Positions 4,504-60,732 of a stretch of DNA of 64,000 nucleotides are shown here, in pieces (positions within the stretch are counted from its first letter, which is position 1; every line of letters begins with the position of its first letter). Under the pieces are notes generated by a model. The model worked only from the letters and a program-made list of their open reading frames with translations. It did no database searches and was not told the DNA's origin. The translations under genes were made by a program, and so were the position numbers. Location of the stretch: contig JAQTUZ010000002.1 in assembly GCA_028707065.1 (NCBI GenBank), positions 6,513 to 70,512 of the forward strand. Direction: 5' to 3'. The stretch comes from Patescibacteria group bacterium (lineage in GTDB: Bacteria; Patescibacteriota; Patescibacteriia; Patescibacteriales; WJLG01).

Positions 4504-5397
4504 ATGAAGATTTTTTCTTGGAATGTAAATGGTATAAGAGCGGTAGTAAAAAAAGGCTTTACGGATTTTTTAAAGAAAGAAAGACCCGATATTTTATGTT
4601 TGCAGGAAATCAAGATTTCCGCTGACGCGCGCAATAAGGAAATTTTTGATTTTGCCGGCTATCAGGAATTCTGGCATTCGGCTCTGCGGCCCGGCTATTC
4701 GGGGACGATGACTTTGGTCAAGGACGATCTTGTCATTGCGAAGAGCGGAAACTCCCAAGTTTTAACACACCCCGTCTCGCGCGGCAGTGATTCTCGGAAA
4801 CCCACCCCGTCCGGCCAGGGGCCGTCCACCCCTCCCGAGGAGGGGAATAGCCACCCCTCCCGAGAGGGGAATAAATTAATTGGGCTCATAGATTTTCCCG
4901 ACGACCCGGAGGGGCGGGTGCAGATTTTGGAATTCGCTAAATTCTATCTGGCCAATGTTTATTTTCCGAACGCCAATCATGAATTGTCGCGGCTGGATTT
5001 TAAATTGAAATTCAATGACCGCTTGTTGAAATTTTTGAAGAAGTTGGAAAAGACCAAGCCGTTAGTTGTCTGCGGCGATTATAACGTCGCTCATGAGCCG
5101 ATCGATCTTTTCCATCCCAAAGAGAACGAAGGCAACGCCGGCTATACGGAGGAAGAGCGGGACTGGATGACTAAGTTCTTAAAAGCCGGTTTTGTCGATA
5201 CTTTCCGCGCCCAAAATCCTAATAAGGCGCAATATTCCTGGTGGAGTTTCCGGATGAACGTCCGAGCGCGTAATATCGGCTGGCGTATTGACTATTTTTG
5301 CGTTTCGTGGTATCTTTTTAAGTCAGTTAAAAGTTCTTTCATAATGGATAAAATACAAGGTTCTGACCATTGCCCGGTCGGGATCGAATTAAAATAA
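4504..5397 (+). CDS. xth: exodeoxyribonuclease III (AP endonuclease)
   Basis: 297 aa. MKIFSWNVNGIRA, LCLQEIK, NVYFPN, VVCGDYNVAH, WWSFR and GSDHCPV are the ExoIII/EEP-family motifs in order. Confidence 0.9.
   Translation: MKIFSWNVNGIRAVVKKGFTDFLKKERPDILCLQEIKISADARNKEIFDFAGYQEFWHSALRPGYSGTMTLVKDDLVIAKSGNSQVLTHPVSRGSDSRKPTPSGQGPSTPPEEGNSHPSREGNKLIGLIDFPDDPEGRVQILEFAKFYLANVYFPNANHELSRLDFKLKFNDRLLKFLKKLEKTKPLVVCGDYNVAHEPIDLFHPKENEGNAGYTEEERDWMTKFLKAGFVDTFRAQNPNKAQYSWWSFRMNVRARNIGWRIDYFCVSWYLFKSVKSSFIMDKIQGSDHCPVGIELK
4764..4872. repeat. compound family A elements (inverted orientation), in frame inside xth
   Basis: A partial copy, a full copy (acccaccccgtccggccaggggccgtccacccctcccgaggaggggaa) and an extra half (ccacccctcccgagaggggaat). 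Encodes ..HPVSRGSDSRKPTPSGQGPSTPPEEGNSHPSREGN.. between conserved ExoIII blocks. Confidence 0.85.
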
Positions 5398-6076: not shown

Positions 6077-9000
6077 ATGCAAGACAAATTCGATCATAAA
6101 GGAATTGAAAACAAGTGGCACGGGGTCTGGGAAGAAGAAAAGATCTATCTGACCCCCTCGGCTTCGCTCGGGGCAGGCGGCGAGGATAAAGCCAGGCCGA
6201 AATATTATGTTTTGGATATGTTTCCTTATCCTTCGGGCGCCGGGTTGCATGTCGGCCATCCCAAAGGTTATATCGCCACGGATATTTTGGCGCGGATGAA
6301 AATGATGAGCGGTTTTAATGTTTTGCATCCGATTGGCTGGGACGCTTTCGGCTTGCCGGCGGAAAATTACGCTCTAAAGAATAAAGTTCATCCGCGGATC
6401 GCCACCGAAAAAAATATCGCCACCTTCAAGAGCCAATTGGAAAAGATCGGCCTGACTTATGATTGGGAGCGGGAAATAAATACTACTGACCCGGAATATT
6501 ATAAATGGACGCAATGGGCTTTCATCAAGATGTGGGAAAAAGGCTTGGCTTATGAATCGACCGAGCCGATCATCTGGTGTCCGACTTGCCAGACCGGGCT
6601 GGCGATGGAAGATCTGGAAAACGGCAAATGCGAGCGCTGCGAATCCGAAGTGGTGCGCAAACCGATGCGCCAATGGGTGATCAAGATTACTGATTATGCC
6701 GAGCGATTATTGAACGATTTGGATAAGCTTTCCGGCTGGGAAGATTCGATTAAAGAAATGCAACGCAACTGGATCGGGCGTTCGGAAGGAGCCGAAGTGA
6801 AGTTTGAAGTAAGAAGTAAGAAGGCAGAAGAAAAAAAGTCCCCCCTTGCTTGCCCCGCAAAGCGAAGCGATGCGTGGGAGAGGGGTGGCGCCGCCGCGGC
6901 GACGGGGTGTGTGACGGTTTTTACAACTCGTCCCGATACTTTGTTCGGTTGTACTTATGTGGTTTTGGCGCCGGAACATCCGGAAATTGGAAATTGGAAA
7001 TTGGAAATTGGAAATTGGAAAGAAGTTGAAAGTTATATTAATGAAGCCAAGAAAAAAACTGATCTTCAACGTACTGATTTAAACAAGGATAAGTTTGGAG
7101 TAAAGCTTGAGGGCGTGATGGCAGTCAATCCGGCGAATCAGGAAGAAGTGCCGGTGTTCATCGCCGATTATGTCCTGCCGAATTATGGCACGGGCGCGAT
7201 CATGGCCGTGCCGGCGCATGATCAGCGCGATTTTGAATTCGCGCAAAAATATGATTTGCCGATTAGAACTGTCGTCACAACTAATAAAGATAATATTGTT
7301 GGTGTCGGCGCGATGATCGAAACGAAAGAAGGAAAATTTTTATTTCAAAGACGAGATAAAAAAACTGATCGGAATCCGGGCATGCTGTCTTTTTTTGGCG
7401 GTGGCACAGAAAATAATGAAGACACCAAAGAAACGTTAAAACGAGAAATAAAGGAAGAATTAAACTTGGAAATAAAAAACAATTTTGTTTTATTGAATAA
7501 ATTCGAAAGTATTAATCATCCCGGAAGATTTTTAGATCTTTTTTACGTTAATAATGTTGACGAGGAAAACATGAAGCTTGGTGAAGGAGCGGCGATTGAA
7601 AAATTTGATTTAGCAGAAGCTTTACAGCGCGACGATGTTACGCCGTTTACAAAAAATGTCATAAAATATTTGCAAGATAAAAAATGTTTTACCGAAGAAG
7701 GCATAAATGAGAATTCCGATTTTCTCGATGGCTTAAAAACAGTCGAGGCGAAGAAGAAGATGATCGAGTGGCTGGAAAAAGAGGGGAAGGGGAAAAGAAA
7801 AATTAATTACAAATTGAATGACTGGGTTTTTTCAAGACAGAGATATTGGGGCGAGCCGATCCCGATGGTGCATTGCGAGAAGTGCGGGACCGTGCCGGTT
7901 GCGGAAAAAGATCTGCCGGTGCGCTTGCCCGAAGTTGAACATTATGAACCGACCGGAACAGGGGAATCGCCTTTGGCAAATATCACTGAATGGGTAAATA
8001 CGACCTGCCCGAAATGCGGCGGCCCGGCCAAGCGCGAAACCAATACTATGCCGCAATGGGCCGGTTCGTCTTGGTATTATTTAAGATATATTGATCCGAA
8101 AAATAATCAGGCCTTAGTTGATAAAGAGAAAGAAAAATATTGGTCGCCGGTGGATTTTTACGTCGGCGGCGCCGAGCATGCTACGCGCCATCTTATTTAC
8201 GCGCGCTTTTGGCATAAATTTTTGTTTGATATCGGCGTAGTGAATTACGAAGAGCCGTTTGCCAAATTTACTCATGTCGGCTTGATCATGGCCGAAGATG
8301 GGCGGAAAATGTCCAAGCGCTGGGGCAATGTCATTAATCCGGATGATATAATAGAAAAATTCGGCGCGGACGCGATGCGCGTTTATGAAATGTTTATGGG
8401 ACCATTCACTCAATCTTGCGCCTGGAGCACCAACGGCTTGACCGGCGCGCGTAAATTTTTGGATAAGGTATGGGTCATTGCGGAAAATTCCCCTCTCGAG
8501 AGGGGTGGCGCGCCCCTGGCGCGACGGGGTGTGTTAACGCCGGATAGCACTAAAGAAATTAAATCCTTGCTTCATAAAACAATCAAAAAGGTTTCCGAAG
8601 ATATCGCGGACTTTAAATTTAACACTTGCATTTCGGCAATGATGATTTTGTCCAATATGATTGAGGTGGCAACCACCCCTGACCCCTCCTTGGAAAGGAG
8701 GGGGATTGGCAAAGAAGATTTTGCTAAATTCATCCAGATTCTCGCGCCGTTCGCGCCGCATCTGGCTGAAGAAATCTGGCGGGAGAAATTAGGCAATAAA
8801 GAAAGCGTTTTCAAATCCGCCTGGCCTGAATATGATAAAGAATTGATCAAAGATGAAACGGTAAATTTGGTAGTGCAGGTTAACGGAAAATTGCGCGCGA
8901 CTATCTCCGTTCCCGCGGGAATTTCTAAAGATGAAGCCAGGGATTTGGTTTTAAAAAATGAGAATGTAAAAAAATGGCTGGCAGGGAAAAAAGTGACGAG

Positions 9001-9085
9001 GGATATTTATGTTCCAGACAAACTTTTTAATATCGTGGTTGTCGAATCTTTTGATATGAAGAGCCTTGCAAATCCTAATTCGTGA
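6077..9085 (+). CDS. leuS: leucyl-tRNA synthetase carrying an internal Nudix-domain insertion and several repeat-encoded inserts
   Basis: 1002 aa. Class I signatures PYPSGAGLHVGH (HIGH) and KMSKR (KMSKS). LeuRS-specific blocks RNWIGRSEGAEV, VFTTRPDTLFG, HDQRDFEFAQKY, SRQRYWGEPIP and VQVNGKLRA. Confidence 0.95.
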   Translation: MQDKFDHKGIENKWHGVWEEEKIYLTPSASLGAGGEDKARPKYYVLDMFPYPSGAGLHVGHPKGYIATDILARMKMMSGFNVLHPIGWDAFGLPAENYALKNKVHPRIATEKNIATFKSQLEKIGLTYDWEREINTTDPEYYKWTQWAFIKMWEKGLAYESTEPIIWCPTCQTGLAMEDLENGKCERCESEVVRKPMRQWVIKITDYAERLLNDLDKLSGWEDSIKEMQRNWIGRSEGAEVKFEVRSKKAEEKKSPLACPAKRSDAWERGGAAAATGCVTVFTTRPDTLFGCTYVVLAPEHPEIGNWKLEIGNWKEVESYINEAKKKTDLQRTDLNKDKFGVKLEGVMAVNPANQEEVPVFIADYVLPNYGTGAIMAVPAHDQRDFEFAQKYDLPIRTVVTTNKDNIVGVGAMIETKEGKFLFQRRDKKTDRNPGMLSFFGGGTENNEDTKETLKREIKEELNLEIKNNFVLLNKFESINHPGRFLDLFYVNNVDEENMKLGEGAAIEKFDLAEALQRDDVTPFTKNVIKYLQDKKCFTEEGINENSDFLDGLKTVEAKKKMIEWLEKEGKGKRKINYKLNDWVFSRQRYWGEPIPMVHCEKCGTVPVAEKDLPVRLPEVEHYEPTGTGESPLANITEWVNTTCPKCGGPAKRETNTMPQWAGSSWYYLRYIDPKNNQALVDKEKEKYWSPVDFYVGGAEHATRHLIYARFWHKFLFDIGVVNYEEPFAKFTHVGLIMAEDGRKMSKRWGNVINPDDIIEKFGADAMRVYEMFMGPFTQSCAWSTNGLTGARKFLDKVWVIAENSPLERGGAPLARRGVLTPDSTKEIKSLLHKTIKKVSEDIADFKFNTCISAMMILSNMIEVATTPDPSLERRGIGKEDFAKFIQILAPFAPHLAEEIWREKLGNKESVFKSAWPEYDKELIKDETVNLVVQVNGKLRATISVPAGISKDEARDLVLKNENVKKWLAGKKVTRDIYVPDKLFNIVVVESFDMKSLANPNS
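6794..6913. repeat. compound repeat insert in leuS (AGAAGTAAG words + family A-like element)
   Basis: gaagtgaagtttgaagtaagaagtaagaaggcagaag (same word as 27134-27160), then ..gggagaggggtggcgccgccgcggcgacggggtgtgtg. Encodes RSKKAEEKKSPLACPAKRSDAWERGGAAAATGC between the conserved SEGAEV and VFTTRPDT blocks. Confidence 0.8.
6982..7020. repeat. GGAAATT heptamer tandem array inside leuS
   Basis: ggaaatt x5 then ggaaag. Encodes EIGNWKLEIGNWK right after LAPEHP. Same heptamer at 10886-10915 and 29207-29290. Confidence 0.9.
7278..7690 (+). other. Nudix hydrolase domain embedded in LeuRS
   Basis: Residues about 401-538. The Nudix box GGGTENNEDTKETLKREIKEELNL at 7397-7468 fits G-x5-E-x7-REUxEE, with the trailing G replaced by N. 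The segment is visibly AT-richer than the flanking leuS sequence. Confidence 0.75.
8488..8535. repeat. family A double-hairpin element, in frame inside leuS
   Basis: ttcccctctcgagaggggtggcgcgcccctggcgcgacggggtgtgtt. Encodes NSPLERGGAPLARRGVL. Confidence 0.85.
8671..8705. repeat. family B hairpin element, in frame inside leuS
   Basis: aaccacccctgacccctccttggaaaggaggggga. Encodes TTPDPSLERRGI. Confidence 0.85.
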
Positions 9086-20886: not shown

Positions 20887-20924
20887 TCCCCCTCCTTTTT
20901 AAGGAGGTGTTAGGGGTGGTTTGG
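20887..20924. repeat. family B hairpin element (intergenic)
   Basis: tccccctcctttttaaggaggtgttaggggtggtttgg. Confidence 0.8.
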
Positions 20925-22119: not shown

Positions 22120-22180
22120 GCTTCCGCTCGTTCTTCTTCATGGAGCTCGCGACACAATTGTTGCGGGCTCTCTTTTTTTA

Positions 22181-22228
22181 TTCCCCTCCCCGGGAGGGGT
22201 GGCCGCCCCGGGCGGACGGGGTGGGTAT
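22181..22228. repeat. family A double-hairpin element (intergenic)
   Basis: ttcccctccccgggaggggtggccgccccgggcggacggggtgggtat. Confidence 0.85.
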
Positions 22229-22294
22229 ATTCCCGACAATATTAATAAATTTTCAAAAATCTTTGCCACTTTTTTAAAAAAAAGTGGCGCAAAC

Positions 22295-22331
22295 AAACCA
22301 CCCCCAAACCCCTCCTTGGAAAGGAGGGGAG
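22295..22331. repeat. family B hairpin element (intergenic)
   Basis: aaaccacccccaaacccctccttggaaaggaggggag, preceded by the perfect palindrome gccacttttttaaaaaaaagtggc (22265-22288). Confidence 0.85.
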
Positions 22332-35622: not shown

Positions 35623-37845
35623 CTATTCCAAATGAATTTTTTCTTCGAAAATTTCCATTTCCTGCTTTAAGGCAGGATTTTTTTTAAGGTCTGGATCGAT
35701 GTTGAGCAAGGCGACGGCTTCGTTTTGCGCTTGTTGCATTAATTCATAATCCCAGAGCGTGGCGATCTTCAATCCGGGGAAGCCGGATTGGGCCGTGCCG
35801 AAAATTTCGCCCGAACCGCGCAATTTTAAATCCATCTTGGCCAAGGCAAAACCGTCGGAAATTTTTTCCATCGCTTCCAGGCGGCGGCGAGTTTTTTCAT
35901 CGTTGGAAGAAGGGAAGAGAAAACAATATGATTGCTCGGCGCCGCGCCCGACCCGGCCGCGGAATTGATGCAATTGCGCCAAGCCGAAACGATCGGCGCC
36001 TTCGATCATCATAATAGTTGCGTTGGGAACATCGACGCCGACTTCGATCACGGAAGTGGAAACCAAGATTTTATATTCATTATCCAAAAAGCCGCGCATG
36101 ATTTCTTCTTTGTCTTTGGCCTTAAGTTTTCCGTGCAGGGCGGCCATCTTTATTTCCGGAAAAATTGCTTTGTCTAGTTTGATAAATTCTTCTTTGACTG
36201 ATTTCACGCCATAAAGATCAGATTCTTCAATCAGGGGACAAATGACAAAAGTTTGCCGGCCGGCCTTGATTTGTTTCCTGATAAAATCATAAGCGGCGGC
36301 GCGTTTTTCTTCCGGAACGATACGGGTCATGATCGGTTTGCGCCCGATCGGCATCTGTTTGATCACGGAAATATCCAGATCGCCAAACAGCGCCAGCGCC
36401 AGCGAGCGGGGGATCGGCGTGGCCGTCATCGATAATAAATGCGGCGTCAAATCCGAATGGCCGGATTTGGCCATTAAAGTTTTTCTCTGCTCCACGCCGA
36501 AGCGGTGCTGTTCGTCGATTACGGCTAAAGCCAAATTTTTAAATTTCACATCTTCCTGCAATAACGCATGCGTGCCGATAATGATATCTATTTCGCCCGC
36601 CCCGACCATCTTTAAAATTTCCGCCCTGCCGATTTTTTTCCCTCCTTGCGAAGGAGAGGTTAGGGGTGGTTTGTTTTTGTCATCCCGCCTGCCCGGCCAG
36701 GGAGCACAGGCCGCCTCGGCGACGGGGCAAGCAGCTGAAAAATCCCCTCTTGGGAGGGGTGGCCGCGCCGCGCGGACGGGGTGGGTATATTTATTTTCGT
36801 TATTTAAGAGTCGATAATTATTTGTCAGTAAGGCAATTCTTAATGGAAAATTATTTAGCAATCGCGAAAGCGAATTAAAATGCTGCTGCGCGAGAATTTC
36901 CGTCGGCGCCATCAAAACGCCCTGCTTATTATTCAGCGCCACGTTTAGCAAGGCGATGACCGCTACCAAAGTTTTTCCCGAGCCAACATCGCCGTTCAAG
37001 AGCCGCGACATCGGCCGCGTTTTGCCCAAATCGCCTAAGATCGCCCAAGCGGCTTGCCGCTGGTCGTCAGTTAATTTGAAAGGCAAACCGGCCACAAATT
37101 CCTTGGTATCTTTTTCCTTGAATTCGATTTTTACAGCAGTTGCCAAATCGCGGTCTTTTTTTACCAATTGCGATTTTAATTGCAGCAAAAATAATTCATC
37201 GAAGGCCAGGCGGCGGCGCGCCGTCTCCGCGTCAGCCCATTTTTTGGGGAAATGGATCAGTTTTATCGTTTCCTTGAGCGGTAATAAATTAAGTTTTTTT
37301 CTGATTTCTTCCGGCAGAGCGTCGGGTAAATTATGGCTAAGATCGATAACCTGGCTGATTAAAAATCTTAATTGTTTTTGGGTGATCTTTTCAGTCAAAT
37401 GATAATTGGGCACCAAGCCGGAAGTGTGAATCAGTCCTGATGTGCTGACCCGTTCATAAACCGGCGAGGCCATGGTCAAAACGCCCTGATCTTCGGCTCG
37501 GCCGGCGAGCGAGATTGTGTCGCCGACGCGCAAGGTTTTGCCGATGAACGGCTGATTGAACCAGATCACTTTTAAAGTTTCCGTTCCATCGTTAATGAGC
37601 GCTTCAGTGATATACATGCGGCGATGGTGGGCGCGGCGATTCTCGATCAATTCGATCTGGCCGATGACATTGGCGGCAATTCCCGGCCGCAAATCCTTAA
37701 TTTTGGTCGAATGGGTAAAATCGTCATAACGATAGGGAAAATAAAAAAGCAGATCTTCTGCGTTATTAAGACCGATCATTGCCAGACGCTTGCCGATGCT
37801 CGCGCCCACGCCTTTGAGGGAAGTTAGAGGAGTATTTAAGTCCAT
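35623..37845 (-). CDS. recG: ATP-dependent DNA helicase RecG with repeat-encoded internal insert
   Basis: ORF track start 37884 lies in CGAATAC-word repeats; I prefer the ATG at 37845 (MDLNTPLTSLKGVG). Wedge/OB N-terminus, helicase motifs GDVGSGKT, VIDEQHRFG, LSMTATPIPR, QLHQFRGRVGRG. Confidence 0.9.
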   Translation of the reverse strand: MDLNTPLTSLKGVGASIGKRLAMIGLNNAEDLLFYFPYRYDDFTHSTKIKDLRPGIAANVIGQIELIENRRAHHRRMYITEALINDGTETLKVIWFNQPFIGKTLRVGDTISLAGRAEDQGVLTMASPVYERVSTSGLIHTSGLVPNYHLTEKITQKQLRFLISQVIDLSHNLPDALPEEIRKKLNLLPLKETIKLIHFPKKWADAETARRRLAFDELFLLQLKSQLVKKDRDLATAVKIEFKEKDTKEFVAGLPFKLTDDQRQAAWAILGDLGKTRPMSRLLNGDVGSGKTLVAVIALLNVALNNKQGVLMAPTEILAQQHFNSLSRLLNNFPLRIALLTNNYRLLNNENKYTHPVRAARPPLPRGDFSAACPVAEAACAPWPGRRDDKNKPPLTSPSQGGKKIGRAEILKMVGAGEIDIIIGTHALLQEDVKFKNLALAVIDEQHRFGVEQRKTLMAKSGHSDLTPHLLSMTATPIPRSLALALFGDLDISVIKQMPIGRKPIMTRIVPEEKRAAAYDFIRKQIKAGRQTFVICPLIEESDLYGVKSVKEEFIKLDKAIFPEIKMAALHGKLKAKDKEEIMRGFLDNEYKILVSTSVIEVGVDVPNATIMMIEGADRFGLAQLHQFRGRVGRGAEQSYCFLFPSSNDEKTRRRLEAMEKISDGFALAKMDLKLRGSGEIFGTAQSGFPGLKIATLWDYELMQQAQNEAVALLNIDPDLKKNPALKQEMEIFEEKIHLE
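36639..36788. repeat. compound B + C + A element insert, in frame inside recG
   Basis: Family B 36639-36673, tgtcatcc-type hairpin 36679-36725, family A 36743-36788. The coding strand reads ..YTHPVRAARPPLPRGDFSAACPVAEAACAPWPGRRDDKNKPPLTSPSQGGKK... Confidence 0.85.
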
Positions 37846-37898
37846 AAATATAACGCGAATACTGCGAATTTTACGCGAATACAACGAACTATTTTTAA

Positions 37899-37946
37899 TT
37901 CCCCTCCGCGGGAGGGGTGGTCCGCCCTGGGCGGACCGGGGTGTGT
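37899..37946. repeat. family A double-hairpin element (intergenic, upstream of recG)
   Basis: ttcccctccgcgggaggggtggtccgccctgggcggaccggggtgtgt, followed by catcc. Confidence 0.85.
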
Positions 37947-41104: not shown

Positions 41105-41200
41105 TGCTCTCGGCAGGAATCGAACCTGCATTACAAGATCCGCAATCTTGCGTCCTATCCATTGCCACCCAGTGGGTGGTCACCCTCTGGGTGAAACGAC
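41105..41200 (-). pseudogene. tRNA-Arg(GCG) near-full duplicate with a 30-bp double-hairpin element in the D arm and no 5' acceptor strand
   Basis: 41105-41164 is identical to the 3' 60 nt of the adjacent tRNA. Then comes the insert ccacccagtgggtggtcaccctctgggtga (41165-41194), then aacgac, then unrelated ttgtgtaa instead of gagagc. Confidence 0.65.
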
Positions 41201-41388: not shown

Positions 41389-41423
41389 ACCCCTCCTTTC
41401 CAAGGAGGGGATGGGGTGGTTTG
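41389..41423. repeat. family B hairpin element (intergenic)
   Basis: acccctcctttccaaggaggggatggggtggtttg. Confidence 0.85.
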
Positions 41424-60534: not shown

Positions 60535-60732
60535 TTAAGCCGGGTAAAACCGGGCGCCTAAACTCGTAAGACCTCTTGCGGGCATGGTGCGAAAACTCGT
60601 TGAAAATACTGATCCCCACGATCAGCGACTTTTCAACGAGTCATATCTGGAAACGGGTATGGGACCGCAAGGTCTAGCTGGCGTGGGGTTTAGTGTTTCT
60701 ATGACCAGCTAAACCACTTAGTTGGTTTTTTA
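60535..60732 (+). ncRNA. candidate structured RNA / 5' leader of unknown class upstream of the thermonuclease gene
   Basis: tataat at 60522-60527. Nested helices: agacct(c)ttgcgg 60569-60581 with accgcaaggtct 60664-75; perfect 12-bp actcgttgaaaa/ttttcaacgagt (60594-605 / 60629-40) enclosing ctgatc/gatcag. Terminator-like accagct/agttggt + tttttt at 60704-60732. Confidence 0.35.

What the first reader, a model, noticed from the sequence alone, without database searches (positions are those of the whole stretch)
7278..7690. Nudix hydrolase domain inserted inside leucyl-tRNA synthetase
Seen: between the conserved LeuRS blocks HDQRDFEFAQKYDLPI and ..NENSDFLDGL..YKLNDWVFSRQRYWGEPIP lie about 137 extra residues. 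They carry a near-canonical Nudix box (GGGTENNEDTKETLKREIKEELNL, 7397-7468). The DNA of the insert is visibly AT-richer than the flanking leuS. As I recall the E. coli LeuRS sequence, the equivalent linker is only a few tens of residues. Inference: this looks like a domain fusion by insertion. A Nudix module on an aaRS could hydrolyse Ap4A/Ap3A side products, aminoacyl-adenylate or other nucleotide conjugates, or act in a moonlighting role. I am not aware of a described LeuRS-Nudix architecture.
Basis: partly seen in the sequence, partly recalled or inferred. Interest (0 to 1): 0.7.

Follow-up and report, generated by a model that had tools for sequence, protein, structure and literature searches.

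The report
Nudix enzyme nested inside leucyl-tRNA synthetase
A complete, apparently active MutT-like Nudix hydrolase domain sits in frame in a surface loop of the editing domain of this candidate-phyla bacterium's leucyl-tRNA synthetase; the layout is real, under selection, common in that bacterial group, and I found no paper describing it.

Summary
leuS (6077-9085, +, 1002 aa) carries a 134-138-aa in-frame insert (7277-7690). The equivalent loop in Thermus thermophilus LeuRS is 11 residues.

- **It is a Nudix domain.** Pfam NUDIX scores 48 bits (E 1.6e-12) over the full profile. The Nudix box is canonical except for one G->N. The AlphaFold2 model (pLDDT 91) is closest to MutT structures.
- **The host enzyme looks intact.** The HIGH, KMSKS and editing motifs are all present.
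- **It is not an assembly artefact.** The identical protein is public (NCBI Patescibacteria MAG). 32 of the 120 closest LeuRS carry a Nudix domain, 30 of them at this site.
- **It is under purifying selection.** dN/dS is 0.09-0.23, and the catalytic residues are invariant across the family.
- **The loop is a general insertion hot spot.** In relatives it holds two or three Nudix subfamilies, a serine hydrolase, nucleotidyltransferase-like domains and unknown domains.
- **This Nudix subfamily turns up in many contexts.** It also occurs free-standing, at two other LeuRS sites, in IleRS and in a Mur ligase.
- **The insert is compositionally distinct.** Its GC3 is 17-32 points below the host gene in every orthologue checked, and its phylogeny does not track the host's.

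Most likely it is an autonomous nucleotide-pyrophosphatase module riding in a permissive loop. Coupling to LeuRS chemistry is untested. I found no published description.

The parts
6077..9085 (+). leuS: bacterial-type leucyl-tRNA synthetase, 1002 aa plus a TGA stop, carrying the nested Nudix domain
   Evidence: ORF listed. TIGR00396 scores 1020.5 bits against a cutoff of 548.4. The full-length AF2 model (pLDDT 82.7) matches E. coli LeuRS 4AQ7/5OMW with target-normalised TM-score 0.87. The sequence is 100% identical to public protein P0174, an NCBI Patescibacteria MAG entry.
6248..6259 (+). HIGH motif (HVGH, aa 58-61) of the aminoacylation site
   Evidence: Coordinates. H58, G60 and H61 are invariant in the 40-sequence alignment A4.
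6923..6940 (+). Threonine-rich editing motif TTRPDT (aa 283-288) of the CP1 editing domain
   Evidence: Coordinates. These residues are invariant in A4. The motif lies inside the PF13603 editing-domain match at aa 230-406.
7217..7231 (+). HDQRD editing motif (aa 381-385). The second Asp aligns with T. thermophilus D347, the conserved editing-site aspartate. The insert begins 16 residues downstream.
   Evidence: Alignment to 1H3N. H381, D382, R384 and D385 are invariant. The identity of the editing-site aspartate comes from established LeuRS knowledge.
7277..7690 (+). The inserted Nudix domain (aa 401-538; Pfam envelope aa 408-530, nt 7298-7666). It is a whole MutT-sized protein without its own start or stop codon, in frame with leuS.
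   Evidence: PF00293 scores 48 bits, E 1.6e-12. AF2 gives pLDDT 91.2 and pTM 0.85. The top Foldseek hits are MutT structures 3GRN and 3A6T with TM 0.74-0.80. The domain replaces the 11-residue loop 364-374 of T. thermophilus LeuRS. GC3 is 0.275 in the insert and 0.524 in the host.
7343..7357 (+). Subfamily motif FQRRD (insert residues Q24, R26, D27)
   Evidence: Invariant or nearly invariant in alignments A1 and A3, in inserted and free-standing copies alike.
7400..7468 (+). Nudix box GGTENNEDTKETLKREIKEELNL (aa 442-464), holding catalytic residues E448, R456, E457, E460 and E461
   Evidence: Coordinates. R56, E57, E60 and E61 (insert numbering) are invariant and E48 is conserved in at least 90% of sequences, across 21-sequence alignments of inserted and free copies.
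7577..7654 (+). Subfamily motifs EG (insert residues E103, G104) and VTxFTK (insert residues 121-126)
   Evidence: Conserved in alignments A1 and A3.
7691..7852 (+). C-terminal remainder of the CP1 editing domain and the beta-strand linker (..TEEGINENSDFLDGL..YKLNDWVFSRQRYWG) that resumes after the insert
   Evidence: Alignment to 1H3N residues 375 onward. Coordinates.
8306..8320 (+). KMSKS motif (KMSKR, aa 744-748)
   Evidence: Coordinates. K744, S746 and K747 are invariant.

Best explanation
A complete MutT-like Nudix hydrolase of a distinct subfamily, here called NudA, is nested in frame in a variable surface loop of the CP1 editing domain of the organism's functional LeuRS. The organism is a Patescibacteria/CPR bacterium whose closest relative is a Candidatus Falkowbacteria MAG. 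NudA is recognisable by the motifs FQxRD, PFGGG, REhxEEL, EG and VTxFTK.

Shown:
- The polypeptide is continuous.
- Both the LeuRS motifs and the Nudix catalytic residues are intact.
- The insert folds as an independent Nudix domain.
- The insert is kept by purifying selection, and the architecture recurs in many Patescibacteria.

Inferred:
- The domain works as an autonomous Mg2+-dependent pyrophosphohydrolase acting on nucleoside triphosphates or related nucleotide derivatives (a 'house-cleaning' activity).
- It is made together with an essential, constitutively expressed enzyme, and the LeuRS loop simply tolerates it.
- It probably arose by capture of a small free-standing gene of the accessory gene pool. 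It seems to have been exchanged, lost and re-gained among leuS alleles and sites rather than inherited strictly vertically.
For: Nudix identity: Pfam NUDIX 48 bits over the full length. AF2 pLDDT is 91.2 and MutT structures are the top structural neighbours.

Catalytic residues: R, E, E, E of the Nudix box are invariant in 21-sequence alignments of inserted and free copies.

Host function: HIGH, KMSKS, the T-rich motif and HDxRD are invariant. The full-length model superposes on E. coli LeuRS with TM 0.87, and the Nudix region has block pLDDT 86-96.

Selection: dN/dS of the insert is 0.092 against the syntenic orthologue L003 and 0.226 against L088. Host segments give 0.04-0.14.

Recurrence: 32 of the 120 closest LeuRS carry a Nudix domain, 30 of them at this site. 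They come from JGI, NCBI, ENA and Logan assemblies.

Permissive loop: the same site holds two or three Nudix subfamilies, PF06821 serine hydrolase, nucleotidyltransferase-like domains, three unknown domains and short repeat-derived peptides.

Autonomy:
- NudA exists as free 129-139-aa proteins about 40% identical to the insert.
- A free copy sits beside a free PF06821 hydrolase, the same family that is inserted in other LeuRS.
- NudA also occurs at two other LeuRS sites, in IleRS, in a Mur ligase and as C-terminal fusions.
Against: No biochemical evidence exists, and the substrate cannot be read from sequence. The MutT, NudG and other equivalog models all score far below their cutoffs.

Nudix inserts are strongly biased towards LeuRS. 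Of the 13 multidomain carriers among the top hits that are not end-to-end fusions, 7 are LeuRS, one more is a fragment whose flanks match the window LeuRS, and 2 are IleRS. At least two Nudix subfamilies share this one loop. LeuRS-embedded NudA copies from all three sites (P0005 excepted) cluster together in a weakly supported tree. This could mean a LeuRS-linked function rather than mere tolerance.

A persistent GC3 gap of 17-32 points within a single mRNA is not explained by simple vertical inheritance.

Whether the genome lacks a separate MutT-like gene could not be checked. Only 64 kb were available, and they hold no other Nudix gene.
Confidence: 0.6

Rival explanations
1. Functional coupling. 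The Nudix domain acts on a product or side product of LeuRS chemistry (Ap4A/Ap3A, Leu-AMP or non-cognate aminoacyl-adenylate, PPi-linked nucleotides). Alternatively, it senses a nucleotide and modulates editing or aminoacylation from its position in CP1.
For: Nudix domains of at least two subfamilies occupy the same CP1 loop in 30 of 120 related LeuRS. NudA is found at three different LeuRS sites and in IleRS, another class Ia editing synthetase. LeuRS-embedded NudA copies from all three sites (except P0005) group together in the NJ tree. The insert starts 16 residues after the editing-site Asp. From general knowledge, aaRS make Ap4A and some Nudix enzymes hydrolyse it.
Against: The same loop carries unrelated enzymes: serine hydrolase, nucleotidyltransferase-like and unknown domains. 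Closely related LeuRS (77-84% identical) do without any insert there. NudA is also free-standing and occurs in a Mur ligase. The deep nodes of the tree are unsupported. The domain's nearest structures are MutT-type NTPases, not Ap4A hydrolases.
Confidence: 0.2
2. Mobile or selfish in-frame cassette. NudA behaves as a domain-sized genetic element that spreads between leuS alleles, sites and hosts, for example by recombination in the conserved flanks. It persists because excision from an essential gene must be precise. Any benefit to the cell is secondary. This overlaps with the best explanation as to origin.
For: Distribution is patchy among syntenic orthologues: the window and L003 have NudA at aa 400, while L004/P0176 (84% core identity) has it at aa 806 and nothing at 400. 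P0180, P0181 and P0185 (about 80%) have none. Host and insert identities are decoupled, with r = -0.06 over 13 carriers and Mantel r = -0.25 among the 8 closest. One example is a 57-60% host pair with 78-79% insert identity. Insert GC3 is 17-32 points below the host in all five loci checked, despite dS of about 0.7-1.2. Other inserts in these LeuRS include PD-(D/E)XK_3.
Against: There are no terminal repeats, target duplications or mobility genes at the boundaries. No intein/Hint signature was found. No relatives turned up in phage or viral collections. Purifying selection and invariant catalytic residues point to a cellular function. The apparent recombination tract in the flanks is confounded by how the hit list was ranked. 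The low GC3 may simply reflect accessory-gene codon usage, as seen for the free copy in L005.
Confidence: 0.25
3. Non-catalytic relic. The domain has lost activity and serves only as a structural spacer or interaction surface.
For: The Nudix box has G->N at its penultimate position. The nearest protein-database relative P0001 has E->K changes and a 1-residue insertion in the box. P0175 has a 2-residue insertion there.
Against: R56, E57, E60 and E61 are invariant and E48 is nearly so. P0001 comes from a frame-broken contig. The near-identical copy in the L088 genome has an intact box, so P0001's changes look like sequencing errors. dN/dS is 0.09-0.23.
Confidence: 0.05
4. Artefact or spliced element. 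The insert is an assembly chimera, or an intein-like element removed after translation.
For: The base composition is sharply different from the flanks.
Against: The same in-frame junctions appear in many independent assemblies and in syntenic loci. No Hint/intein domain is detected, and the boundary residues (VV|TT ... CF|TE) lack the Cys/Ser ... His-Asn/Cys-Ser-Thr signature. The insert lies in a variable loop, not a conserved motif.
Confidence: 0.02

Closest known systems
MutT/NudG-type single-domain Nudix NTP pyrophosphohydrolases (E. coli MutT 3A6T, M. mazei MutT 3GRN, E. coli Orf135/NudG 2RRK)
   Same: Same fold and size. The Nudix box carries all catalytic Glu/Arg residues. There is a QRR-type motif before the box. 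These are the best sequence and structure neighbours.
   Different: Identity is only 20-28%. Scores are far below the equivalog cutoffs (MutT 35 against 98 bits; NudG 37 against 156). The subfamily has its own motifs (EG, VTxFTK). Here it is not a free protein but is nested inside another enzyme.
Bacterial LeuRS with the CP1 editing domain (T. thermophilus 1H3N/2BTE, E. coli 4AQ7)
   Same: All catalytic and editing motifs are present. Structural TM-score is up to 0.87.
   Different: A 134-138-aa enzyme domain replaces the 11-residue CP1 loop 364-374. The leucine-specific domain (T. thermophilus 580-636) is absent. Three short repeat-derived loops are added.
NCBIfam NF040702 'isoleucine--tRNA ligase, N-acetyltransferase domain-containing' (ileS_w_GNAT)
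   Same: A curated precedent for a class Ia synthetase that carries an extra enzyme domain in one polypeptide. It is listed among the hits.
   Different: The host is IleRS and the guest is GNAT. The window protein matches that model only through shared synthetase regions (71 bits against a cutoff of 1999). No corresponding curated model for LeuRS-Nudix came up.
Lineage-specific insertion domains in large essential enzymes (RNA polymerase beta/beta' insertions, PMC11515920; domain-insertion surveys, PMC13114784)
   Same: A compact domain is nested in a permissive loop of a conserved host. aaRS and CP1 are known insertion-prone contexts.
   Different: Those inserts are mostly non-enzymatic structural modules fixed in a lineage. 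Here the guests are varied stand-alone enzymes with a patchy, site-hopping distribution. PMC13114784 describes CP1 as an inserted module only, never a host.
Inteins
   Same: An in-frame foreign segment inside an essential gene, with distinct composition and patchy distribution.
   Different: There is no Hint domain and no splice-junction residues. The segment lies in a variable loop rather than a conserved site, and it is predicted to stay in the mature protein.

Membership tests
Nudix hydrolase superfamily (PF00293) | Profile HMM match above the curated threshold over the whole domain | tested here: met
   48.0 bits against a gathering score of 21.1, covering profile positions 4-133 of 134.
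Nudix hydrolase superfamily (PF00293) | Nudix box GX5EX7REUXEEXGU | tested here: met
   aa 442-464 read G-x5-E-x7-R-E-I-K-E-E-L-N-L. All acidic and Arg positions are present, and the only deviation is G->N at the penultimate position. Box residues are invariant in the subfamily.
Nudix hydrolase superfamily (PF00293) | Alpha/beta/alpha sandwich Nudix fold | tested here: met
   The AF2 model has pLDDT 91.2. Foldseek finds 568 PDB matches at E<=1e-3, and the best-ranked are Nudix proteins with TM up to 0.80.
Nudix hydrolase superfamily (PF00293) | Divalent-cation-dependent hydrolysis of a nucleoside diphosphate linked to X | not testable with these tools
   Needs an enzyme assay.
MutT 8-oxo-dGTP diphosphatase (TIGR00586 / NF008044 equivalogs) | Score above the equivalog cutoff | tested here: not met
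   35.4 bits against 97.9, and 35.3 against 148. The domain is MutT-like in fold only and is not filed as MutT.
NudG/Orf135 CTP pyrophosphohydrolase (NF007834) | Score above the equivalog cutoff | tested here: not met
   36.7 bits against 156.
Bacterial leucine--tRNA ligase (TIGR00396) | Equivalog score above the cutoff | tested here: met
   1020.5 bits against 548.4. The match falls into two stretches that are split by the insert.
Bacterial leucine--tRNA ligase (TIGR00396) | HIGH and KMSKS catalytic motifs; CP1 editing motifs (T-rich region, conserved Asp) | tested here: met
   HVGH is at aa 58-61, KMSKR at 744-748, TTRPDT at 283-288 and HDQRD at 381-385. All are invariant in A4.
Bacterial leucine--tRNA ligase (TIGR00396) | Leucine-specific insertion domain of the T. 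thermophilus / E. coli type | tested here: not met
   Window aa 739-744 span T. thermophilus residues 579-637, so this domain is absent. It is not universal among bacterial LeuRS, so membership stands.
Intein | Hint splicing domain and junction residues (N-terminal Cys/Ser, C-terminal His-Asn followed by Cys/Ser/Thr) | tested here: not met
   No Hint or intein family appears among the Pfam hits. The junctions read TVV|TTNK and KKCF|TEEG.
DNA transposon / MITE-type insertion | Terminal inverted repeats or target-site duplication at the boundaries | tested here: not met
   Only short chance-level repeats occur, and none flanks 7277/7690.

The most novel reading that the evidence does not exclude
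NudA, along with the other enzyme domains found in these LeuRS, is a domain-sized, in-frame mobile cassette. On this reading, a whole small enzyme gene without its own start or stop moves between permissive loops of essential Patescibacteria proteins (three LeuRS sites, IleRS, a Mur ligase). It moves by recombination, keeps a foreign AT-rich composition, and is retained because it sits in a gene that cannot be lost. LeuRS would then act as a 'landing pad' that carries part of the accessory enzyme repertoire of these tiny genomes. A second novel reading is that the Nudix activity is mechanistically coupled to LeuRS editing or adenylate chemistry.
Probability: 0.25. Interest if true: 0.8.

Novelty: new variant of a known kind. 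Interest (0 to 1): 0.58.

Why it matters
aaRS specialists regard bacterial LeuRS as architecturally fixed: a catalytic core, CP1, a Zn module, the leucine-specific domain and the anticodon-binding and C-terminal domains. In one large, poorly studied bacterial radiation, about a third of the LeuRS nearest to this one carry whole extra enzymes nested in CP1 and two or three other loops. Nudix hydrolases are the commonest guest.

If the Nudix domain is active, this is a natural two-enzyme chimera. It could be used to test three things:
- how far CP1 tolerates large inserts, which bears on protein engineering and on benzoxaborole-type drugs that target CP1;
- whether nucleotide sanitation or Ap4A turnover is physically tied to aminoacylation;
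- how minimal genomes package accessory functions.

The patchy, site-hopping, compositionally foreign behaviour of the insert also raises the possibility of a kind of in-frame domain mobility that has not been described. The sequences are already public but carry only generic names such as 'class I tRNA ligase family protein' or 'leucine--tRNA ligase', so the phenomenon is hidden by annotation.

Tried and rejected
- **Word-indexed search with the insert alone.** It found only one fragment, P0001. That under-counted relatives badly. The exhaustive HMMER search and the full-length LeuRS search showed the true spread.
- **Degraded Nudix box in P0001.** This first suggested decay. I rejected it because contig L001 is frame-broken and the near-identical L088 copy has an intact box.
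- **Locus search with alignments A1 and A2.** The genome scan with the insert alone found nothing.
- **Phage or viral origin.** One weak phage NudI hit at 35% identity and no viral contigs.
- **Transposon-like boundaries.** None found.
- **Intein.** No Hint domain and no junction residues.
- **Recombination tract in the flanks.** P0247, P0198 and P0203 gave residuals of +11 to +21 points. I do not rely on this. Those three proteins entered the top-120 list because the insert raised their score, and only one non-carrier of similar divergence was available for comparison.
- **General low GC3 of inserts.** The GC3 gap is small for most other Nudix inserts (0-0.09), so the big gap is specific to NudA and a few others.
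- **Literature.** Eight searches combining LeuRS, aaRS, Nudix, CPR, Patescibacteria and domain insertion found no description.
- **Inter-domain geometry.** Model coordinates are not returned by the tools, so it could not be measured.
Full report
**1. What is in the sequence**

The finding lies inside one long ORF, 6077..9085 on the + strand, 1002 aa. The finding's start is one base out of frame. Codon 401 starts at 7277, and 7277-7690 translates cleanly.

The whole protein is a bacterial LeuRS. It scores 1020.5 bits against TIGR00396, whose cutoff is 548.4, and the match falls into two stretches. The Pfam LeuRS editing-domain model PF13603 matches aa 230-406 and stops at profile position 146 of 185. 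Pfam NUDIX PF00293 follows directly at aa 408-530.

On its own, the 138-aa insert scores 48.0 bits (E 1.6e-12, gathering score 21.1) over profile positions 4-133 of 134. The strict 23-residue box is aa 442-464. It fits GX5EX7REUXEEXGU apart from one G->N at the penultimate position.

Aligned to T. thermophilus LeuRS (1H3N), window aa 279-401 match residues 243-363 and aa 536-739 match residues 375-579. About 134 residues therefore replace an 11-residue loop, starting 16 residues after the HDQRD editing motif.

The compositional contrast is real:
- The insert has 32.6% GC and GC3 0.275.
- The rest of leuS has 47.1% GC and GC3 0.524.
- The 25 window ORFs of at least 250 aa have mean GC3 0.50, sd 0.09, minimum 0.298.

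**2. It is a folded, probably active Nudix domain inside an intact LeuRS**

I modelled the insert with AlphaFold2 using a 21-sequence family alignment. The model has pLDDT 91.2 and pTM 0.85, with the strand/helix order of a minimal Nudix protein. Its best PDB neighbours are M. mazei MutT (3GRN), E. coli MutT (3A6T and related entries), YfcD, NudI and similar proteins, with TM 0.74-0.80. By sequence, the best solved relatives are E. coli Orf135/NudG and MutT-related proteins.

It is not an orthologue of any curated Nudix equivalog. MutT scores 35 bits against a cutoff of 98, and NudG scores 37 against 156.

The full-length model has pLDDT 82.7 and pTM 0.75. The Nudix segment keeps block pLDDT 86-96. 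The model superposes on E. coli and T. thermophilus LeuRS with target-normalised TM up to 0.87.

The following LeuRS motifs are present and invariant in a 40-sequence alignment:
- HIGH: HVGH, aa 58-61.
- KMSKS: KMSKR, aa 744-748.
- T-rich editing motif: TTRPDT, aa 283-288.
- HDQRD: aa 381-385.

No Hint or intein family matches. The junction residues are not intein-like. No terminal repeats or target duplications flank the insert.

**3. It is not an artefact and not a one-off**

The identical 1002-aa protein is public as P0174. NCBI names it 'MAG: class I tRNA ligase family protein [Patescibacteria group bacterium]', and it sits on a 138,861-bp contig.

Among the 120 best LeuRS relatives, drawn from JGI, NCBI, ENA and Logan assemblies:
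- 47 have at least 40 extra residues at this loop, and 41 have at least 90.
- 32 carry a Nudix domain: 30 at this site, one near aa 245 and one near aa 806.

Syntenic orthologous loci (xth, a small ORF, then leuS followed by an MFS transporter or an rRNA methyltransferase) were recovered for P0175 (L003; Nudix at the same site) and P0176 (L004).

The closest species-representative genome is a Candidatus Falkowbacteria MAG (L088). It is 85% identical over aa 330-620, with the same insert and an intact Nudix box.

Large inserts at this loop also occur in Saccharibacteria, Paceibacterota, Kaiserbacteria and Zambryskiibacteria. They also occur in gut MAGs labelled 'Tenericutes'.

**4. Selection**

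| Comparison | Insert dN | Insert dS | Insert dN/dS | Host segments dN/dS |
|---|---|---|---|---|
| Window vs L003 | 0.109 | 1.18 | 0.092 | 0.06-0.11 |
| Window vs L088 | 0.167 | 0.74 | 0.226 | 0.04-0.14 |

dS values near or above 1 are rough estimates. In alignments that mix inserted and free-standing copies, R56, E57 and E60 are invariant in both A1 and A3, and E61 is invariant in A3 and at least 90% conserved in A1. E48 is conserved in at least 90% of sequences. So are the subfamily motifs Q24/R26/D27, F40-G41-G42, E103-G104 and VTxFTK.

The apparently degraded box of the fragment P0001 comes from a frame-broken contig. The near-identical L088 copy contradicts it, so I treat it as sequencing error.

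**5. The wider pattern, which changes the interpretation**

(a) The loop is a general hot spot. At the same position, related LeuRS carry the following inserts of at least 90 aa:

| Guest at this loop | Number of LeuRS |
|---|---|
| This Nudix subfamily (NudA) | 11 |
| Other Nudix subfamilies (about 155-178 aa, sharing only the Nudix box with NudA) | 19 |
| Nucleotidyltransferase-like domains (weak matches to PF14907 and PF10706) | 5 |
| PF06821 serine hydrolase | 1 |
| Unknown domains of about 120-130 aa with no Pfam match (3 of one recurrent type, 2 singletons) | 5 |

Two further copies of the recurrent unknown domain lie a few residues away in the alignment (P0237, P0288). Other LeuRS loops (near aa 245, 550, 603 and 806) carry Ham1/ITPase, ASCH, PD-(D/E)XK_3 and alpha/beta-hydrolase domains. 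Some proteins reach 1260-1398 aa with three guests.

(b) NudA appears in several contexts. The exhaustive search of 1.84 billion representatives found 1335 Nudix relatives at E<=1e-3. The best hits after the near-orthologue are:
- NudA copies inside LeuRS at three different sites (P0003, P0005; P0004, P0010, P0014; P0002).
- Copies inside IleRS, next to a low-molecular-weight phosphatase (P0021, P0023).
- A copy inside a Mur ligase (P0070).
- C-terminal fusions to an unknown domain (P0041, P0060, P0113).
- Free 129-139-aa proteins about 40% identical (P0006-P0012, P0151-P0156).

A free copy (P0153) lies in a block of small stand-alone enzyme genes. That block includes a free PF06821 hydrolase, the same family that is nested in other LeuRS.

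(c) Distribution is patchy among close relatives:
- P0176/L004 has 84% core identity to the window LeuRS and is syntenic. It has nothing at aa 400 but a 44%-identical NudA at aa 806.
- L002 shows the same aa-806 arrangement.
- P0180, P0181, P0183 and P0185 (about 80% identical) have only 18-55 residues at the loop.

(d) Host and insert histories look decoupled. Over the 13 NudA-carrying LeuRS, core and insert identities are uncorrelated (r = -0.06). Among the eight carriers of the window's NudA clade, Mantel r = -0.25. For example, P0247 has 57-60% host identity to the window protein but 78-79% insert identity. P0179 and P0182 have 75% host identity to each other but 62% insert identity.

In an NJ tree, the LeuRS-embedded copies from all three sites (P0005 excepted) group together, apart from most free copies, with the sites interleaved. 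Only shallow clades have bootstrap support.

(e) NudA stays AT-rich wherever it sits:

| Locus | Insert GC3 | Host gene GC3 |
|---|---|---|
| Window | 0.275 | 0.524 |
| L003 | 0.234 | 0.414 |
| L004 (insert at aa 806) | 0.267 | 0.486 |
| L002 (insert at aa 806) | 0.19 | 0.41 |
| L088 | 0.23 | 0.55 |

Most other Nudix inserts differ from their host by only 0-0.09. The free copy in L005 shares the lower GC3 of its accessory-gene block (0.43-0.53), while the neighbouring core genes are at 0.6-0.76.

A test for a recombination tract in the LeuRS flanks gave large positive residuals. It is confounded by ascertainment: distant carriers entered the list because of the insert itself. I count it as inconclusive.

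**6. Mechanism**

Shown:
- There is a single continuous polypeptide.
- The LeuRS catalytic and editing motifs are intact.
- The insert is an independently folding Nudix domain with a complete catalytic box.
- The insert is under purifying selection.
- The architecture recurs in many Patescibacteria.

Inferred: the domain is an autonomous Mg2+-dependent nucleotide pyrophosphohydrolase of the MutT/NudG type, most likely acting on (d)NTPs or damaged nucleotides. It was captured from the pool of small accessory enzyme genes into a permissive CP1 loop. There it is co-expressed with an essential enzyme.

Three observations argue for tolerance rather than a role specific to editing:
- The same loop accepts unrelated enzymes and disordered repeat-derived peptides.
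- NudA also lives free and in other hosts.
- Close relatives manage without it.

Three observations argue against pure tolerance and leave room for coupling to aaRS chemistry (Ap4A, adenylates):
- Nudix is by far the commonest guest.
- At least two Nudix subfamilies share the site.
- LeuRS and IleRS dominate among NudA hosts.

The patchiness, the use of three sites, the host-insert incongruence and the persistent foreign composition suggest the insert moves between leuS alleles and sites. No mobility machinery or boundary signature was found.

**7. Comparison with what is known**

The parts belong to known families: the Nudix superfamily and bacterial LeuRS. The kind of event, a domain nested in a loop of a large enzyme, is also well known. 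A curated precedent for a class Ia synthetase with an embedded enzyme exists (NF040702, IleRS with GNAT).

A recent survey of insertion architectures treats the LeuRS editing domain as an exclusively inserted module, never a host (PMC13114784). Eight full-text searches found no paper describing LeuRS-Nudix or enzyme-domain insertions in CPR synthetases. The library lacks much subscription literature, so absence there is not proof.

I therefore rate this a new variant of a known kind. The architecture is real, widespread and apparently undescribed, but it is built from known families and already present, generically annotated, in public databases.

**8. Verdict**

Its functional suggestions are untested and, on present evidence, less likely than an autonomous house-cleaning role.

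Interest is moderate to high (0.58). The single locus is a clean example. The larger story, in which Patescibacteria LeuRS acts as a landing pad for varied enzymes and a Nudix subfamily behaves like an in-frame cassette, is what a specialist would find surprising.

Noticed in passing
window 6824-6910, 8483-8554 and 8672-8728 (inside leuS); 4759-4908 (inside xth); also 1455-1508, 2482-2502, 20887-20920, 22177-22329, 36640-36786, 37898-37920, 41390-41410: A family of GC-rich palindromic mini-repeats with core CCCCTC-N2-9-GAGGGG. There are 11 copies against 0.02 expected by chance. Several are inserted in frame in coding genes, giving peptides such as SPLERGGAPLARRGVL and PSLERRG. They are absent from the closest relatives (L088, L001). 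In the AF2 model they are disordered loops (pLDDT below 50). Similar peptides (SPLERGG.., CHPERSDSE..) fill the same LeuRS hot spots in other Patescibacteria. This resembles the Rickettsia palindromic elements that insert into protein-coding genes. Evidence.
   Followed up: partly
relatives of leuS: P0003, P0005, P0184, P0197, P0221, P0229, P0232, P0246, P0253, P0270, P0275, P0277, P0281, P0288, P0293: Patescibacteria LeuRS carry many other whole enzyme domains nested at four or five hot spots: Ham1/ITPase, PF06821 and alpha/beta hydrolases, ASCH, PD-(D/E)XK_3, nucleotidyltransferase-like domains, and three unknown domains of about 120-130 aa with no Pfam match. Up to three guests occur in one protein (1260-1398 aa). 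Evidence.
   Followed up: partly
window 8291-8306 (aa 739-744 of LeuRS): The leucine-specific insertion domain of T. thermophilus / E. coli LeuRS (T. thermophilus residues about 580-636) is missing from this LeuRS.
   Followed up: no
window 6977-7030 (LeuRS aa about 301-318): A short tandem duplication in the editing domain (EIGNWKLEIGNWK) coincides with a local GC3 dip to 0.225.
   Followed up: no
window 7277-7690 and the equivalent inserts in L002, L003, L004, L088: The NudA insert keeps a GC3 17-32 points below its host gene in every locus examined, although synonymous divergence between orthologues is about 0.7-1.2. Most other Nudix inserts at the same site do not show this. No explanation tested here accounts for it.
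   Followed up: partly
L010-L013 and L089 (gut metagenomes; MAG labelled 'uncultured Tenericutes bacterium UMGS900'): LeuRS from very AT-rich gut organisms outside the labelled Patescibacteria (GC3 about 0.1) also carry a Nudix domain of a different subfamily at the same CP1 loop.
   Followed up: no
window 60555-60675 (+): LOOT RNA (Rfam RF03000), 84.5 bits against a gathering score of 46.4.
   Followed up: no
window 41112-41168 (-): A weak, truncated tRNA-like Rfam match (29.9 bits, model positions 7-64) lies next to tRNA-Arg(gcg). ARAGORN does not call it.
   Followed up: no
L001 (ENA ERZ25039473 contig_76779) and L088 (MFD01188.bin.1.43): leuS is broken into several frames in these assemblies. 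In L001 the Nudix box shows E->K changes typical of homopolymer errors. These are probably long-read assembly errors rather than pseudogenes.
   Followed up: partly
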